Below, piece by piece: positions 1-41,359 of a DNA stretch of 41,359 bases. Under the pieces are notes generated by a model. It saw nothing but the letters and a program-made list of their open reading frames with translations, was not told where the DNA came from and ran no database searches. Origin of the DNA: a virus (Duplodnaviria > Caudoviricetes); the IMG/VR virus record IMGVR_UViG_3300048856_000094, positions 1 to 41,359 of that record; one strand, given 5' to 3'. How positions within the stretch are numbered: position 1 is the first letter of the stretch; each line of letters opens with the position of its first letter. The translations under genes and the position numbers were made by a program.

Positions 1-309
1 ATGGCCCGATCATCCCCCCTGCCCGTGCCGGCCAGCGAGCGCGATGCCCTGCTCGCCAGCCCCCTCAACACCCTGATCACGACTGCCCTGGTCGCGCACT
101 GCGGCGATCCCTGTTGCCCGCCGCCCAGACCAATCCCCGTGGCGGATGTGCTGCGGGCTCGTGGCAACCGCCCCTTGGCGCATGTGCTTGGCGGCCTCTT
201 CTGCACGGCCTGCGGTTCCCCCGCCCAGGTTGTCTCCCTCCGGGCTGACTGCCCGGGAGGCTGGATCATCCAGCCGGTCGTGGTCGCTGAGCAGCGCGCG
301 GTGCCGTGA
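1..309 (+). CDS. Small Cys-rich putative zinc-ribbon protein
   Basis: HCGDPCC...FCTACG cysteine pairs; GTGA overlap with the next gene. Confidence 0.7.
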   Translation: MARSSPLPVPASERDALLASPLNTLITTALVAHCGDPCCPPPRPIPVADVLRARGNRPLAHVLGGLFCTACGSPAQVVSLRADCPGGWIIQPVVVAEQRAVP

Positions 310-567: not shown

Positions 568-609
568 GTAGGACATTTTAGCCTATACGATCAGGCTAAA
601 ATGTCCTAC
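568..609. promoter_or_regulatory. Perfect 17-bp inverted repeat (two operator-like arms) overlapping a probable + strand promoter
   Basis: GTAGGACATTTTAGCCT-ATACGATC-AGGCTAAAATGTCCTAC. Each arm is itself (T/C)AGG-N9-CCTA. Weak TATACG-17-TACAAC promoter overlaps it. Confidence 0.7.
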
Positions 610-660
610 AACACTCCTGCCGGTGGCTAGAGCCGGTAACCCGGAACGGAGGAAGTGAAG

Positions 661-735
661 ATGAGCTTCACCATCACGTTTCAGACCAAAAGGTGGGGGA
701 CGGTGACCATCACAATCACCGTCCACCTGATCTAG
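661..735 (+). CDS. 24-aa peptide MSFTITFQTKRWGTVTITITVHLI (not in ORF track)
   Basis: GGAGG at 648-652, 8 nt before ATG; alternating hydrophobic/Thr pattern typical of a beta-hairpin. Confidence 0.6.
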   Translation: MSFTITFQTKRWGTVTITITVHLI

Positions 736-745
736 CGGTCTGAAA

Positions 746-773
746 GGAGGGGGCCGGTGCAACGGCCTCCTCC
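746..773 (+). other. 11-bp RNA stem-loop downstream of the peptide ORF
   Basis: GGAGGGGGCCG-GTGCAA-CGGCCTCCTCC; no U-tract. Confidence 0.65.
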
Positions 774-814
774 ACCGGGTTCTACCCTAAGCATCGGGAC
801 AGGAGGTTTCAAGG

Positions 815-991
815 ATGGCTTACGCTGGAACGATCCAGCCGCCCCGGGCCCGCATTCCGCGTCTCGGTTTCCAGATCAAGGTGACGCGGGAGAAAGGTGG
901 CGGCGGTGAGCCTGACCCTGAGGATAAGCGCGGCCCACTGCGCCGGCTTTGGGACGCCCTGCGCAATCTGGTGAAGGTGCGGGTGCGATGA
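815..991 (+). CDS. 58-aa basic hypothetical protein MAYAGTIQ...LVKVRVR (not in ORF track)
   Basis: AGGAGG at 801-806; ATGA overlap with the next gene. Confidence 0.65.
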   Translation: MAYAGTIQPPRARIPRLGFQIKVTREKGGGGEPDPEDKRGPLRRLWDALRNLVKVRVR

Positions 992-1242
992 GGCCCACCG
1001 TTGAGCCGAAAGAAAAGGCAGAGAGCGGCGTCCGCTTCTCTGCCGCTCTGGAGGAACTGGGCCACACTCAGGCGTCGTTTGTCCGTTGGCTCATGGAGAA
1101 TGGCGACCCGCGTGGTCTTGCCACGCTGCAACGCTATGTGGGCCGGATGGTGCGGGGCGAAGCTGCCGCCAGCGGCGAGATGTGGGTGCTGCTGGAATTA
1201 CTGAAGCGGCAGAAGGCGGACGCAGCCGCTACGCCCGACTAG
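988..1242 (+). CDS. Small XRE/Cro-like HTH DNA-binding protein
   Basis: FSAALEELGHTQASFVRWL...YVGRMVRGE...MWVLLELL pattern; ATG at 988 coupled to the upstream stop. Confidence 0.7.
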   Translation: MRPTVEPKEKAESGVRFSAALEELGHTQASFVRWLMENGDPRGLATLQRYVGRMVRGEAAASGEMWVLLELLKRQKADAAATPD

Positions 1243-2463: not shown

Positions 2464-5400
2464 TCAGGCGCGCATCAGCAGGTCCGCGAGCATGTAGCCT
2501 TCGCCCACATAACCAGCGGCATTGGGATGCACGAGATCGGCGCCGCCGGCGTACAGCCCCATCGCGAGGCCGGCGTCGTAGCTGCCGCCGAAAACGTCGC
2601 GAAGGTTGATCACGGGGCAGCCGTTCCTCAAGCCAGCATCGAGGATGATGCTGGTGAGCTGGTCCTGCGTCACCTGAGACCGCCGCGCCAAGGCGGAAGG
2701 GTTGGGGATTTGCAGGACCACATCACTGGTTTGCTTCAGGCTCGCGATGCCGGCCTGAAGGGCGGCGGCAGTGGTGCCGTTCGCGATTTCGGTGGCCGTG
2801 TCATTCAGGCCGGTTTCCAGGACCACCAGATCAGGGGCAATCGTTTTGATGGCGTTGAGCGGATACCCGACCTGAGTGTCTGTGATCCCGGCTTCGAGAA
2901 TCTCGGTGGTCTTGCCGCCGCCGTGCCCGAAATTGTGGATGCGGACGCTCTTGGCGTCTTTGTTGTACGCCTCCAGGCCATGGAAGCCGGCCGCGTTGCC
3001 GCTGATGTATTTCAGGCCGAGGGTGTGCGTGCCCAGCCCGCCGGGGCAGGCGATCTCCGTGCCCACGAACGCCACCGGAGAAGACTTGGTGTTGAGGCGC
3101 TGGACTTCGGCGCCATCCACGAAAATGGCGATTACCCGGTCGGACCCATACCAGACATTCCACCACTTGAAATGCGAGACAGGGACAGTCGGGGTCCACT
3201 CGAACATGCCGCCAGCAGTGGTTTGCTGCCAAGCATCGCCGCCTAGCGCGCCGCTGGATGCGGTCGCCCAGCCGGCGCCGATCACCACTTCCGGCCCCAG
3301 CACGGCTGCCGTCTGGCTCGGCGTAAAGCCGCTGTCACCCCAGATGTTTTGCAGCGTCGTGCTCAGGCCGAGAGCGTTGAGCCTTTCTGCCGCACGGGCT
3401 GGGGCGGAGCGGCGCCGCGCACGGTCGTATAGGTCATTGATGCCTGCGCCACAGCCAGCCACGGTGCTGTTGCCCATGAGGCCTACCACTGCATCCCCGA
3501 GACCGGCCATCACGCGGTTGCGTGCCGCGCGCCACCGCAAGAGGAAATTCGGGTTGTAGTTCAGGATGCCAGGGATGCTGTTGCGCGGGCTGGCCCAGCG
3601 GCTGCCGTTCCACTCGTAGCGCCCCGGCCCGGACTCGCCCCAGCCCGTCGCAGACCCCGACACGGCGCTGCTGTAGGCCGCCTGGCCAACCACCGGATCA
3701 GCCGGCTCTGTGGCGGCCGGGAGCATGATGGTGGACTTGGCCGCCACGCTCTTCCACGGCCACGCGACGGTGCCGAGATCCTGCCCGCCGTTGGTGTTGG
3801 GGCGGAAGGTTCCGTCACCCGTCACCCGCACGGAATAGTTCAGGCCCGTGGCGGAGATGGAATAGAGCGTGATGCCGCCCGGGTTGCTGCCATCCTGCAG
3901 CGCGCCGATGTTGATGCCGGCGCCATTGGACAGCGCCTGCCCGGATGCGCGCAGCGCCAGGTAGCGATCGGCGCCGCTGTTGCGCGCGGCGATGGTCGGG
4001 CGCACCGCGTCGTCCGGGCCACCCGGCGTGCCAAAGTCGAGCAGCGTGGTGAACAGCTGCAGCCGGCGATCGGCAGAGCCGATCTTGTAGTTGCCGCTGC
4101 TGCCGTTCGGCAGGAACTCGCCGGCATTGTTGAAGTGCCAGCTCCAGTTCGAGCCATCAGGGCCGGTGGTGTAGAGCGAGATGCCACCCGGATTGCTGCC
4201 GCCGGCGTCGCGGGCGTGGAAATTGGCGCCCGCGCCCTGCGCCAGAGACCCGCCAAGTCCTCGAATGCCGAGATACTTGTCGTCACCCTGATAGCGGGCC
4301 ACAACAGAACCGAACTCGCCGGGCCGCGCACCCTCGCGCTGGTCATAGATTTGCAGCGCGTTCTGGTAATAGTTGAGGGCCAGCAAGTAGCCCTCCAGCT
4401 GCTCGGAATACGCCGCCAGAGACCAGCCCGACCCATAGGGGAAGGTGTCCTTGATCGAGCCGCGCCCGGTCGCCCGCTGCGCGCCGTTGATGGCGGCGGT
4501 GCGGCCGCTCTCCAGCGGCTGCTCGCCCGCCTCGCCGCGCGCCGGGTGGAAGGCATACAAATGGCTCAGGCGGTGCGTGTTGTAGCCGAGGCTGTAGTCC
4601 GCGCGGCTGGCATCCCAGGCACCATCCGTCGCCGGGCGCCGGGTCTTGACCCAATACTGCGCATCCATCGGGCTGATGCCGGCAGCGGGCTTGCGATAGC
4701 AGGCCCAATTCGATCCGGCATAGCTGACAATGGAGCCGCCATCGGCCCAGAATTCCGTGTAGATACCAGCAACATCGCCGTCGATGATGGCGAGGCCTTC
4801 GGCTTCGAACCAGCCCGGGTTGCCGTAGTTGGGATGCCCCAGCAGCTGGTCCTTGGTGTAGAGCGCGCGGGCATCGTCCGTGCGCAGGCGGCGCAGCAGC
4901 GTGCCATCCATGGTCCAGATTTCGAGGATGTGCTGCCCGAAAGCCGGGAAGAACCCGCGCTGGAGGTAGATGTGCTCCCCATCCGTGGTGATGCCCTGGA
5001 TGAAGTTGGTCTGATCGTCACCCGGGGGGTTGTCGATCCACATCAGCAGCGGCCGCGCGTCCAGGGGATCGGCCAGGGCTTCCACGGCGGCGCGGTCATA
5101 GACAAAGACCGCCGTGGAAGGGTCGTCGCCGGGCGCCACGCCAAACGGCGCGTTCCGCTCCTGATAGGCCGTGCCCATCACGAGGTATTTGCCATCCGGC
5201 GACATGCCGATGGAGGCGCCGGCGAAGGCTTCAAAGGGGTGCCCGCTGCCGGTGTAGCCCCAGAGCCGGTAGTTCTTCACATCGGCCTGCGACGTGTCGC
5301 CGCCGCGCCACTTGACCTTGGCGAAGCCCTTCTCGGCCTGGCGCTCTTCAAAGCCGGGCTCGGTGGTGCAGGTCGTGTAGAGCCAGACCTGGCCGCTGGC

Positions 5401-6057
5401 ATCGAGCACCGCGCCGAGCCCGGCGCCGTGGCCGATCTTCATCTCCTGCGAGTAGGCGACCAGCACGGTGGTGCCGTCTTCCCGCCACTCGAATTCCATG
5501 ATGCGGCAGGTCTCATTGGCGAGGAACGTGCCGCCACTGACCACCTTGGTGAGGAACAGGCGGCGCTTCTTGCCGTCATTCAGGTAGGCGATGGATTGAG
5601 GGGCGCCGCCGGAATTCGGAAAGATCTGGGTATCGGTGGTGCGGCCCTTCATGCCGAGGTCGATGGCCGTGAGATGGCGCTGCACATAGCGGGGCCGCAG
5701 CGGCCGGAAGGGGGCGACTTCCGCCTGCACATCGCGGACCCGTGCCGCGTCTCCGGGCGCCACCGGCGCAGCCAGGCGCAGCGGGCCCGTCATCGGCTTG
5801 GAGCCATCGGCCAGGATGCCAACGGAATCCAGCACCCCCTTGGCCACCAGCTTGGTGGCGTCGAGGTTGGCGGCCTTCAGGTCGGCCCAGGTGGCGACAT
5901 AGGCGGTGCCATCCACCACCAGGGTCAGCAGCGCATCATCCTGCGGCGCCCGCTTGGCCAGCTTGTGCATGAAGCGGGCGCGCGCCACGGCGCCTTGCGG
6001 CAGATACAGGATCTCGCCCGCCGGCGTGGCCAGCGGCAGATCGGCAGTGTCAGACAT
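2464..6057 (-). CDS. Large tailspike/receptor-binding protein: N-terminal beta-propeller-like region, internal repeat, C-terminal SGNH/GDSL esterase
   Basis: SGNH blocks GNS, NFGHGG, TGLND and DLVHPN; QSIAY/GHG/QGI/EAEGL propeller-like motifs; follows the tail fibre genes. Confidence 0.75.
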   Translation of the reverse strand: MSDTADLPLATPAGEILYLPQGAVARARFMHKLAKRAPQDDALLTLVVDGTAYVATWADLKAANLDATKLVAKGVLDSVGILADGSKPMTGPLRLAAPVAPGDAARVRDVQAEVAPFRPLRPRYVQRHLTAIDLGMKGRTTDTQIFPNSGGAPQSIAYLNDGKKRRLFLTKVVSGGTFLANETCRIMEFEWREDGTTVLVAYSQEMKIGHGAGLGAVLDASGQVWLYTTCTTEPGFEERQAEKGFAKVKWRGGDTSQADVKNYRLWGYTGSGHPFEAFAGASIGMSPDGKYLVMGTAYQERNAPFGVAPGDDPSTAVFVYDRAAVEALADPLDARPLLMWIDNPPGDDQTNFIQGITTDGEHIYLQRGFFPAFGQHILEIWTMDGTLLRRLRTDDARALYTKDQLLGHPNYGNPGWFEAEGLAIIDGDVAGIYTEFWADGGSIVSYAGSNWACYRKPAAGISPMDAQYWVKTRRPATDGAWDASRADYSLGYNTHRLSHLYAFHPARGEAGEQPLESGRTAAINGAQRATGRGSIKDTFPYGSGWSLAAYSEQLEGYLLALNYYQNALQIYDQREGARPGEFGSVVARYQGDDKYLGIRGLGGSLAQGAGANFHARDAGGSNPGGISLYTTGPDGSNWSWHFNNAGEFLPNGSSGNYKIGSADRRLQLFTTLLDFGTPGGPDDAVRPTIAARNSGADRYLALRASGQALSNGAGINIGALQDGSNPGGITLYSISATGLNYSVRVTGDGTFRPNTNGGQDLGTVAWPWKSVAAKSTIMLPAATEPADPVVGQAAYSSAVSGSATGWGESGPGRYEWNGSRWASPRNSIPGILNYNPNFLLRWRAARNRVMAGLGDAVVGLMGNSTVAGCGAGINDLYDRARRRSAPARAAERLNALGLSTTLQNIWGDSGFTPSQTAAVLGPEVVIGAGWATASSGALGGDAWQQTTAGGMFEWTPTVPVSHFKWWNVWYGSDRVIAIFVDGAEVQRLNTKSSPVAFVGTEIACPGGLGTHTLGLKYISGNAAGFHGLEAYNKDAKSVRIHNFGHGGGKTTEILEAGITDTQVGYPLNAIKTIAPDLVVLETGLNDTATEIANGTTAAALQAGIASLKQTSDVVLQIPNPSALARRSQVTQDQLTSIILDAGLRNGCPVINLRDVFGGSYDAGLAMGLYAGGADLVHPNAAGYVGEGYMLADLLMRA

Positions 6058-39344: not shown

Positions 39345-39361
39345 CCCGCAAATGACCAGTC

Positions 39362-39448
39362 AGCCGAGATATCGGCACAGCGGTAACTCGGATATCCGAC
39401 ATATCGGCGAGCCGACATGTCGGACTATCGGGATACCGATTAGCCGAC
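39362..39448. repeat. parS-like array 1 (8-bp period)
   Basis: CG core of YCGR recurs every 8 bp from 39365 to 39445 (11 units). Confidence 0.8.
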
Positions 39449-39748
39449 CTTTCGGGGCACCTTCCGCAGATCCACGAAGTCGGCTGGCACCACAGGGTAT
39501 CCAGCGTCACGCAGGATCTCCAGCAGCAGGGTTGTGGCAGAGATGTTCCGCCTAGCCGCCCTAGTCTTAATCTCCAGGGCAACTGCCTCAGGCAGTGCGA
39601 ACTCCATGCCCTGCCGCTTAGGCTTCGTGGCCTTAGCCGGAGACGCGGTCGGCGCAACAGGCAGGACGCGATCAGCGAGAGGCTGGAGGCGCTGCCGCAG
39701 TTCGTCGTCATTCAGGTCTGGCAGGGGCGTCGGAGGGCGCTTAGCCAT
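39440..39748 (-). CDS. Ribbon-helix-helix partition partner (type Ib centromere-binding)
   Basis: MEFALPEAVALEIKTRAARRNISATTLLLEILRDAGY..; overlaps the parA stop. Confidence 0.78.
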   Translation of the reverse strand: MAKRPPTPLPDLNDDELRQRLQPLADRVLPVAPTASPAKATKPKRQGMEFALPEAVALEIKTRAARRNISATTLLLEILRDAGYPVVPADFVDLRKVPRKVG

Positions 39749-40439
39749 TGTTCGTCCACCCGAGCAGCGCCGCCACTTCATCACCTATTGCTGTCACGTT
39801 GCCGGCCGCGCCGCCCTCCGGATCATCTTCCCAGGGAGGGGTTCCGGTGTAGGTCATCAGCCGGAAGGCGGTCCGCTCCATCAGCTCGGTGGACAGCATG
39901 GGCAGTCCCCGCTCAGCAAACTGCTTCCTGCTATGCTCCACCACCCTCTGCCGAAGCACCGGGGTACGCGAGAGAACGACGCGGGAGGTAATCTCTCGCC
40001 GGGTTAGGTCAGCAGCCTGCTCCACCACGGCATGGGTCTTCATCGCTTCAACCACATCGAAGAGCGACGGCTGAGCAGGAATGAGAACTAGGTTCGCCTT
40101 GCCGCAGGCGTAGAGCATGGCCTGGTTGGCGGTGCCCTCCAGATCGATCACGATCAGCCCAGCCCTCTTGCTCGCCTCGGCGACGGCCGTCAGCAGAGTC
40201 TCGCCATTGGCCACCTCAGCCCGGACGCCCTTCGCCTTGCCCCGGCGAATCGCCTGATACAGGGTTTGGTTCGGATCAGCATCAATACACTCGACCATCC
40301 GGTTATCCGGCATGTCGGGACTCCGGTCAGCCGACATATCGGATAACCGGCGCGCCAGTTCCGTCGCGAGGCAAAAAGCGAGCGTGGTCTTGCCGACGCC
40401 GCCCTTTGTGCTGGCCAAAGCCAGAATTTGAGGTGCCAT
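39741..40439 (-). CDS. parA: ParA partition ATPase (short, type Ib)
   Basis: KGGVGKTT deviant Walker A, IDADPN, IVIDLEG, LVLIP.QPS..D; start 40439 or 40457. Confidence 0.93.
   Translation of the reverse strand: MAPQILALASTKGGVGKTTLAFCLATELARRLSDMSADRSPDMPDNRMVECIDADPNQTLYQAIRRGKAKGVRAEVANGETLLTAVAEASKRAGLIVIDLEGTANQAMLYACGKANLVLIPAQPSLFDVVEAMKTHAVVEQAADLTRREITSRVVLSRTPVLRQRVVEHSRKQFAERGLPMLSTELMERTAFRLMTYTGTPPWEDDPEGGAAGNVTAIGDEVAALLGWTNNG
40290..40350. repeat. parS-like array 2, inside the parA coding sequence
   Basis: CG every 8 bp from 40292 to 40348 (8 units). Confidence 0.75.
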
Positions 40440-40441
40440 GG

Positions 40442-40519
40442 GCCGAAACTCCGACATTCCGGCTTGCCGGTCAACCGATATGTCGGTTAACCGGAATGCC
40501 GACTATCCGGACAGTCGGA
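40442..40519. repeat. parS-like array 3 over the parA promoter/start
   Basis: CG every 8 bp from 40444 to 40516 (10 units). Confidence 0.8.
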
Positions 40520-40807
40520 AGTATTGAACTTCAATGGCTTACGTGCGCCGGCTGTTGCAGGAGATGTTGATCTTCCCTGCTGCTAAAGCCATGCTGAAAC
40601 ACGGCCTCGAATCCCCGAGGCCAGAAATGAGAAAGGGGCCGCCCCAGCAGAACCGCCAGAACAACCCCTTCCCGTAATCACTGCCTATCCCGCCTGCCAG
40701 GGCGGAACGAGCAAACAGTTCAATTTGCCTGCTCAAGATAGGCACTCGCGCTTTAAGCCGCAAGATTCGCGGAACGGGAAACTGCGTCCTGTTGGCGGCC
40801 CAGGAGC

Positions 40808-41359
40808 ATGGGCATGCCTGCCTCATCACGCCCGGCCCGCGCCGGGTCTGTGCGCGTTGCCGCCTGGCAGCGCCAGCACCTCGGCGACGCTGACCGGCGC
40901 CGCATCATGGAAGCCGCGCGCCGTCTGGAGCGGCGCAGCCACCAGGCAAGGATGCACGGCGGCGCCCTGCGCCGCACCGGCATCCTGGTGCTGTGGACGC
41001 TGCTCTATCGTGGCCCATCGCGGCACGGCGTCTGTGACCCCAGCATCGGCCAGTTGGCTGAGTGGTCCGGCTGCGCCCGCTCCACCGTGCAGCTCGCCCT
41101 TGCCCGCATCGAGGCCGCCGGCATCATGGGCCATGTCCGGCGCGGGCTGACGGTGGCAGGCCGCTGGTGCCAGTGGACCTCGGCCTACCTCTTCGCCAGC
41201 CCAACGCAGTGGGCGCTAAGCGATACCGAAACCCGGTCAGCCGAAGTCTCTATGGATAGAAAGAAGGCTATGGAGAAGGAGAGGGGAGGGGTGGACCGCA
41301 CCCTACCGGCGCCTGAGCGCCAGGTACTGGCGGCAAAATGGGGGCTGACGATGGCTTAG
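40808..41359 (+). CDS. Plasmid-type replication protein (winged HTH, HTH_36-like)
   Basis: GG.L..TG..VL..LL.......G.CDPS...LA...GC.RSTV..AL.R.E.AG......R......Q.TSAY.F; divergent from parA. Confidence 0.65.
   Translation: MGMPASSRPARAGSVRVAAWQRQHLGDADRRRIMEAARRLERRSHQARMHGGALRRTGILVLWTLLYRGPSRHGVCDPSIGQLAEWSGCARSTVQLALARIEAAGIMGHVRRGLTVAGRWCQWTSAYLFASPTQWALSDTETRSAEVSMDRKKAMEKERGGVDRTLPAPERQVLAAKWGLTMA

What the first reader, a model, noticed from the sequence alone, without database searches (positions are those of the whole stretch)
568..1242. Unannotated operator / 24-aa beta-hairpin peptide / switchable RNA / 58-aa / HTH module
Seen in sequence: a twin operator, then a strong-RBS 24-aa ORF (SFTITFQT-KRWG-TVTITITV), an 11-bp hairpin, and a second strong-RBS 58-aa ORF coupled to an XRE-like HTH. 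The 3' segment 768-786 (TCCTCC-A-CCGGGT-TC-TACC) is complementary to the 5' leader 635-653 (GGTA-ACCCGG-AAC-GGAGGA), including the Shine-Dalgarno. This pairing is mutually exclusive with the 746-773 hairpin. Established: 5'-3' fold-back that hides the RBS is typical of type I toxin mRNAs such as hok, but those toxins are helical TM peptides. Inference: an autoregulated addiction, defence or signalling cassette with a beta-hairpin effector, placed at the junction of the plasmid backbone and the lysis genes.
Basis: partly seen in the sequence, partly recalled or inferred. Interest (0 to 1): 0.75.

Follow-up and report, generated by a model that had tools for sequence, protein, structure and literature searches.

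The report
Antisense-guarded beta-hairpin peptide with own repressor
A prophage carries a conserved cassette in which a 24-residue peptide gene, predicted to fold as a two-stranded hairpin, lies in a tightly folded RNA sequence, faced by a predicted opposite-strand promoter and followed by a likely self-repressing DNA-binding gene; it is most likely an undescribed toxin-antitoxin family of alphaproteobacteria, though toxicity is untested.

Summary
The module is real and conserved. Twin operator, 24-aa ORF, hairpin, 58-aa ORF and HTH recur in related prophages. Only 639-644/775-780 pairs; it covaries, coexists with the hairpin and is predicted to open, not hide, the ribosome site.

New here: a sigma70-type promoter on the opposite strand (-35 at 812-807, -10 at 789-784) points back over the peptide gene (11 of 13 HTH-linked loci, 1.3 expected). 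The peptide-plus-folded-RNA unit is a wider family. It also stands alone on chromosomes, in up to five model matches per genome, tandem or decayed, and sometimes carries helical hydrophobic peptides instead. The 58-aa ORF is an optional insert. No Pfam, NCBIfam or Rfam match; ten literature searches found no description.

Best reading (55%): a type I toxin-antitoxin-like module with a cationic beta-hairpin peptide, an antisense RNA and an added Aca-like autorepressor. Toxicity, translation and the antisense RNA are inferred, not shown; no RNA data were available.

The parts
569..585 (.). operator 1 (17-mer, TAGG-N9-CCTA), predicted HTH site
   Evidence: like 17-mers lie upstream in all 13 HTH-linked loci (4-7 of 7 outer positions self-complementary); binding not tested
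592..608 (.). operator 2, inverted copy of operator 1, between -35 and -10
   Evidence: at -60 to -81 from the start codon in 12 of 13 loci
584..612 (+). predicted sense promoter (-35 584-589, -10 TACAAC 607-612; start near 618-619)
   Evidence: inferred from alignment with L003 and L014; weak match, not found by the consensus scan
619..637 (+). H1, leader hairpin; loop often CAAUGG-type in distant relatives, not here
   Evidence: nearly invariant in the 5 closest loci
639..644 (+). 5' strand of the closing helix (pairs with 775-780); in shorter transcripts part of it pairs into the SD hairpin instead
   Evidence: P 0.90-0.997; two compensatory changes in L014, 1 of 4 relatives
648..653 (+). 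Shine-Dalgarno of the peptide, partly paired with early codons (H2)
   Evidence: helix 1: 84% of cells paired over 19 sequences
661..735 (+). 24-aa peptide MSFTITFQTKRWGTVTITITVHLI, predicted amphipathic beta-hairpin; its coding sequence also forms hairpin H3
   Evidence: alternation p=0.003, folding z -2.8 against synonymous recoding; pN 0.055, pS 0.29 against L034; no family match; fold not modelled
746..773 (+). H4, post-stop hairpin with an A-rich or GNRA loop; not terminator-like
   Evidence: 9 of 10 pairs with double-sided changes; U-tract in 1 of 31 loci
775..780 (+). 3' strand of the closing helix
784..812 (-). predicted antisense promoter: -35 TTGAAA (812-807), 17 nt, -10 TAGGGT (789-784); RNA would start near 776-777 and run back over H4, the peptide gene and its SD
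   Evidence: transcript not observed; 3' end unknown
815..991 (+). ORF2, 58 aa, optional insert: beta-like stretch, Gly/Pro linker, amphipathic helix; SD 801-806 lies inside the antisense promoter spacer
   Evidence: uncorrected pN/pS 0.18-0.71 in 5 comparisons; 5 other protein clusters; model pLDDT 57, helix 39-57
988..1242 (+). 84-aa four-helix HTH-like protein, likely autorepressor
   Evidence: 96 representatives at E<=0.001; pLDDT 95; weak XRE/cI-type fold matches, best E 0.4; atlas neighbours HTH_3 and Aca2/YdiL at 0.89-0.90

Best explanation
This is most likely a type I toxin-antitoxin-like cassette: a conserved gene for a small cationic peptide, predicted to form an amphipathic beta-hairpin and presumed toxic to the host, lies in a strongly folding RNA sequence and would be silenced by an antisense RNA from a predicted promoter just downstream on the other strand, while the HTH protein at the end likely represses the cassette's own promoter. 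Shown by comparison: coding-type conservation of peptide, ORF2 and HTH; selection on RNA fold inside the coding sequence; fixed position of the antisense promoter motif; operator present with this HTH family. Inferred: translation, toxicity (probably at the membrane, from charge, tryptophan and alternating hydrophobic residues), existence and length of the antisense RNA, HTH binding, and a role in keeping the prophage (loss of the element would let the stable message outlast the antisense RNA). The closing helix may act as a modest activator once the 3' part is transcribed, and the 5' end of the antisense RNA would cover its 3' strand first. ORF2 is passenger cargo of a subfamily.
For: Antisense promoter motif 39-50 nt after the stop in 11 of 13 HTH-linked loci, 1.3 expected, and in 18 of 20 later loci, 0.87 expected. 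Beta-alternation p<0.05 in 17 of 20 peptides; folding z -2.3 to -5.5 against synonymous recoding in 20 of 20; sense strand more stable than antisense in 19 of 20. 87% of cells paired against 75% in shuffles and 38-55% in slid controls. The unit also stands alone, with up to 5 model matches in a genome, tandem copies and broken copies, a pattern reported for type I loci (PMC5416894, PMC4147584). The same RNA layout carries helical hydrophobic peptides in L144 and L150. HTH-linked copies lie mostly in mobile DNA.
Against: No experiment. The promoter pattern was set after I had seen most of the 13 loci by eye; about 12 of the 20 later loci are one orthologous group, 3 are mis-called ORFs, and model R2 overlaps the -10 position. 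The strict pattern is met in only 1 of 7 stand-alone family loci; a looser pattern puts a -10 at 43-57 nt in all 7. The RBS is not unusually hidden: 10-14 kcal/mol against a median 16.1 for 21 window genes. No conserved terminator for an antisense RNA (4 of 31). In some loci (L014, L049, L064, L085) the upstream gene is divergent and could use that promoter. Known membrane type I toxins are helical (PMC8309996). The 3'-segment effect on the RBS has the same sign in 9 of 13 loci only.
Confidence: 0.55

Rival explanations
1. Aca-like anti-defence operon: the HTH autoregulates a short operon through the operator and perhaps hairpin H1, and peptide and ORF2 are small inhibitors of host defence; antisense transcription only tunes output.
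For: Layout matches acr-aca operons as described in PMC13551039 (repeat over the promoter, hairpin of about 20 nt right after the start site, ending about 20 nt before the first gene; here H1 ends 23 nt before the ATG). The HTH family also ends other small-gene operons that have the operator and no peptide (L004, L046, L050). Atlas neighbour Aca2/YdiL-like.
Against: No acr neighbour or PADLOC match. The peptide unit is common on chromosomes without any HTH, next to housekeeping genes. The conserved antisense promoter is not part of the acr-aca layout in the passages read. No PDB sequence match to an Aca.
Confidence: 0.17
2. The peptide is a non-toxic regulator (for example an AimX-like antirepressor, or a strand that adds to a host protein's beta-sheet), controlled by antisense transcription.
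For: Small phage antirepressors of about 29 aa exist (bioRxiv 10.1101/2025.11.23.689978, passages). The window peptide has net charge only +2 and is Thr-rich.
Against: Sequence identity across the family is low (4-42% outside the closest group) while charge and alternation persist, which fits a membrane or generic target better than one protein surface; it occurs without the HTH.
Confidence: 0.15
3. The functional product is a structured non-coding RNA (sense or antisense), and the ORF is a leader or a by-product of hairpin sequence.
For: Very strong folding (z -6.6 and -5.4); several copies keep the fold with a broken ORF (L067, L079, L119, L120); in the closest group sense and antisense energies nearly tie.
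Against: SD, start, open frame of 23-36 codons and alternation persist across very different DNA; changes are mostly synonymous against L034; no Rfam match.
Confidence: 0.08
4. The first reader's riboswitch-like toggle between hairpin 746-773 and SD pairing governs the module.
For: The duplex can be drawn here and in L014 (-12.1, -10.9 kcal/mol).
Against: +4.5 kcal/mol, P<0.001; absent in L003 and L007; H4 itself covaries.
Confidence: 0.05

Closest known systems
Ibs/Sib type I toxin-antitoxin loci of E. coli (PMC4147584, passages)
   Same: Very short peptide gene, repeated copies per genome, cis antisense RNA that overlaps the whole coding region and ribosome site (the geometry predicted here).
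   Different: IbsC is a 19-aa transmembrane helix (PMC12648545, passage); no sequence or Rfam match; no co-encoded repressor in the passages read.
AapA/IsoA of Helicobacter and Campylobacter (PMC5416894, PMC8309996, passages)
   Same: Small cationic peptide, strongly folded mRNA with 5'-3' pairing, multiple and decayed copies, some on mobile DNA. A likeness in residue pattern is recalled, from no call.
   Different: The IsoA promoter can be silenced by synonymous changes in the ORF and IsoA is complementary to the 5' UTR; here the promoter lies about 50 nt after the stop. AapA1 is helical by NMR. No PDB hit with the peptide profile.
acr-aca1 and acr-aca2 operons (PMC13551039, abstract, passages, first third of Results)
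   Same: Small HTH last in the operon, one or two inverted repeats over the promoter, hairpin directly after the start site.
   Different: No acr gene recognised; HTH family unrelated by sequence to solved Aca proteins; adds a folded peptide mRNA and an antisense promoter.
hok/sok of plasmid R1 (named in PMC12648545 section 13; mechanism recalled)
   Same: Addiction logic on a mobile element; long-range pairing in the toxin message.
   Different: No mok-like overlapping leader looked for or seen; the fold-back here is predicted to open the RBS; Hok-type toxins are about 50 aa and helical.

Membership tests
Type I toxin-antitoxin system | Small protein gene under coding selection | tested here: met
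Type I toxin-antitoxin system | Protein is toxic to its host when derepressed | not testable with these tools
   needs expression assay
Type I toxin-antitoxin system | Antisense RNA complementary to the toxin message | tested here: inconclusive
   promoter motif conserved; no transcript data; no terminator
Type I toxin-antitoxin system | Ribosome site sequestered by mRNA folding | tested here: inconclusive
   SD-flanking helix conserved but opening energy not above background
Known membrane type I toxins (Hok, Ibs, TisB, Fst, AapA and others) | Alpha-helical transmembrane segment | tested here: not met
   alternating polar/apolar pattern in 17 of 20; no family match; pattern-based only, real fold untested
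AapA/IsoA | Antisense promoter inside the ORF, RNA over the 5' UTR | tested here: not met
   motif lies 39-57 nt after the stop; I did not scan the ORF itself for a second promoter beyond (none found)
Aca regulators | HTH co-encoded with a known acr gene | tested here: not met
   no match for neighbours in Pfam, PHROGs, NCBIfam, PADLOC; no Acr library was available
Aca regulators | Inverted repeat over own promoter plus 5' hairpin | tested here: met
   binding not testable
XRE/cI-type HTH | Profile or fold match | tested here: inconclusive
   no Pfam hit; TM about 0.5-0.6 to XRE-type domains, E>=0.4

The most novel reading that the evidence does not exclude
A new class of type I toxin: cysteine-free cationic beta-hairpin peptides, like beta-hairpin antimicrobial peptides, spread through at least two alphaproteobacterial families on one reusable four-hairpin RNA chassis that can also carry helical toxins, and on prophages placed under three layers of control (HTH repressor on DNA, mRNA fold, antisense RNA).
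Probability: 0.4. Interest if true: 0.78.

Novelty: new variant of a known kind. Interest (0 to 1): 0.62.

Why it matters
The reviews read describe membrane type I toxins as helical and note a gap in phylogenetic coverage (PMC8309996, PMC12648545). A beta-hairpin family in alphaproteobacteria would add a new toxin fold and host group, show type I modules with a built-in protein repressor, and give dozens of natural short cationic peptides whose toxicity can be tested with one cloning step. If the Aca-like rival holds, it points instead to new phage anti-defence peptides.

Tried and rejected
Rfam: nothing meaningful for the window (miRNA/snoRNA hits far below cut-off) or 17 related loci. Pfam, PHROGs, NCBIfam, PADLOC, PDB sequences: no match for peptide, ORF2 or HTH. 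Consensus promoter scan found none because its threshold is 9 of 12. Expression: no RNA holder listed; DNA contigs only showed this allele and an L014-like allele. ORF2-HTH complex: no verdict. ORF2 atlas hits under 0.9. The 17-8-17 repeat as a lox-like or telomere site: rejected because each arm is its own palindrome, the motif follows the HTH family, and the two arms are imperfect or single in relatives. H4 as terminator: rejected (1 of 31 sense). Plasmid and annotated-phage collections gave no module (one HTH-only hit). Pattern scans gave chance hits: 5 of 6 and 8 of 10 (part of that printout was cut). Six of eight metagenome ORF2 hits are weak partial matches; four were inspected and are unrelated. 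Class and phylum scans: HTH in 2 of 401, RNA model in 11 of 151 and 4 of 151 genomes, with only G001 and G456 judged real; limited sensitivity, not absence. The operator consensus alone is not specific: 5 window sites at 9 of 10, 54 at 8 of 10. Earlier-findings look-ups found no report of this module.

Full report
Setting. The window is a virus record classed as provirus, 91% complete. Pfam shows lysis genes, a Mu-like tail, a lambda-like head, two resolvases, ParA (39744-40457) and a Rep-like HTH (40808-41359). Nearest named relatives of the module are in Roseomonas, so the host is probably an acetic-acid-family alphaproteobacterium (inference). In L003 the module follows a similar Rep gene, so it may neighbour the replicon here too if the ends join; that is not shown.

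Observation. All listed parts are present. The repeat is unique in the window and 619-800 folds with z -6.6. The proposed switch is not favoured: +4.5 kcal/mol, pair probability below 0.001, hairpin probability about 1. The anti-SD arm is missing in L003 and L007. The helix 639-644/775-780 does form, and L014 changes both strands at two positions. The RBS is not more hidden than those of 21 other window genes (median 16.1; their starts were not checked).

Relatives with the HTH. The HTH has 96 representatives at 50% clustering. A profile found 17 places in 16 of 401 genomes of the family around G001: 7 have an intact peptide module, 1 a decayed one (L037), 9 none detected. Of 8 viral loci, 2 are cut at the contig end and 6 have the module, one decayed (L059), two identical (L057, L058) and two already known (L053, L056). 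Five of 13 distinct intact loci carry ORF2 (window, L003, L007, L014, L034); L055 has a second, decayed module with ORF2. In the other eight the HTH follows the hairpin directly. A 17-bp palindrome of type TASGNC-N5-GNCSTA lies upstream in all 13 and, by eye, before HTH genes without peptide (L004, L046, L050), which ties the operator to the HTH, not to the peptide. The HTH model has four helices, pLDDT 95; fold matches to XRE/cI domains are weak.

The peptide is a gene and its RNA is folded. Over 20 intact loci (13 HTH-linked, 7 stand-alone; L067 and L079 left out as broken) the ORFs are 23-36 codons with an SD, net charge +1 to +10 and 1-3 Trp; alternation is significant in 17; folding of SD plus CDS beats synonymous recodings in all 20 (median z -3.4). 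Most fold into a row of four hairpins: leader, SD with first codons, rest of the CDS, post-stop hairpin (13 loci). On 19 aligned sequences 87% of cells pair, with 16 of 24 pairs changed on both sides, 9 of 10 in H4; relatedness inflates the shuffle control, the slid control (38-55%) does not share that fault. The beta-hairpin itself is a pattern-based prediction; the peptide was too short to model.

Antisense promoter. On the minus strand TTGAAA-17-TAGGGT lies at 812-784. The hexamers are kept while the spacer varies: TTGAAT/TATTGT, TTGATA/TACCCT, TTGAAA/TAGATT and others; 11 of 13 loci, 1.3 expected, 4 of 826 background windows. I set the pattern after seeing most of these loci. In loci found later it is met in 18 of 20, 0.87 expected (5 further loci had no SD plus ORF and were not counted), but about 12 are orthologues and R2 covers the -10. 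In the 7 stand-alone family loci the strict pattern is met once, a loose one at 43-57 nt in all. In the window, L003, L055, L057 and L080 the upstream gene is on the sense strand, so the product can only be antisense; in L014, L049, L064 and L085 a divergent gene could use it. No terminator marks its end.

Wider family. Covariance models found the unit without HTH: 18 of 151 (R1) and 17 of 151 (R2) family genomes, including false hits seen on inspection; up to five matches in one genome, a tandem pair (L106, L116), frameshifted or stopped copies, typically facing the 3' end of an ornithine carbamoyltransferase or ABC ATPase gene. A second family has hits in 22 of 101 genomes, with peptides such as MKKMPFFLVLQWRRWRIEIRLIRR, and two loci where the same layout holds a helical Leu-rich peptide (L144, L150). 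Taxon names of G-handle genomes are not given.

Mechanism. Steps shown by comparison: coding and structural selection, promoter motif position, operator-HTH association. Steps inferred: the HTH represses the sense promoter; the message is folded and modestly opened by the closing helix; an antisense RNA starting near 776 covers that helix, H4, the ORF and SD and would send the message to RNase III (by analogy with PMC5416894); loss of the element or a block of transcription would release a membrane-active peptide. The HTH can be Aca-like in any case.

Literature. Ten searches found no description of this family; the library lacks most subscription papers. Seen: PMC13551039 (abstract, passages, Results part 1 of 3), PMC12648545 (passages, section 13; 112, 119), passages only of bioRxiv 10.1101/2025.11.23.689978 (91), PMC11796252, PMC11109978, PMC5416894, PMC8309996, PMC5082802, PMC4147584. 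No supplement was read; that of PMC11109978 could not be opened (140), and motif or small-ORF lists there, in PMC13551039 or in sORFdb could already hold members. The label phnK/phnL for the ABC genes, the tendency of alphaproteobacterial promoters to lack the last -10 T, the hok mechanism and the AapA likeness are recalled.

Verdict. Real, conserved, unannotated; works most likely like a type I toxin-antitoxin locus, is not a member of any named family tested; new variant of a known kind; interest 0.62.

Noticed in passing
window 1-309 and 306-554: Two coupled small ORFs with CxxC pairs just upstream; the second has weak zinc-ribbon hits. A similar Cys-rich ORF precedes the module in L055.
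   Followed up: no
L055 1165-2200: Two modules in tandem; the second has lost the peptide but keeps the hairpin, antisense promoter motif, ORF2 and a second HTH.
   Followed up: partly
L044 and L051, before the HTH: A second CAAUGGGG-loop hairpin with its own SD sits between the antisense promoter and the HTH, suggesting that this hairpin is a binding site used twice.
   Followed up: no
L144, L150, L141, L148: Same RNA layout and antisense promoter motif with helical Leu-rich or mixed peptides: candidate further type I toxins.
   Followed up: partly
L048, L049: AT-rich versions inserted among terminase genes; peptides have a hydrophobic N-terminal extension before the beta-hairpin pattern.
   Followed up: partly
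L004 2150-2180, L046, L050: Same HTH family and operator on small-gene operons without peptide: possible Aca-like anti-defence operons.
   Followed up: no
window 2464-6057: 1197-aa tail-region protein with a C-terminal GDSL esterase domain, possibly a capsule deacetylase.
   Followed up: no
window 39360-39440 and 40320-40520: Repeated CCGA(C/T)AT-type motifs flank parA, likely partition sites or iterons (seen).
   Followed up: no
runs X1 and X3: Two alleles of the module (window-like and L014-like) occur in the same samples, at different depth.
   Followed up: no
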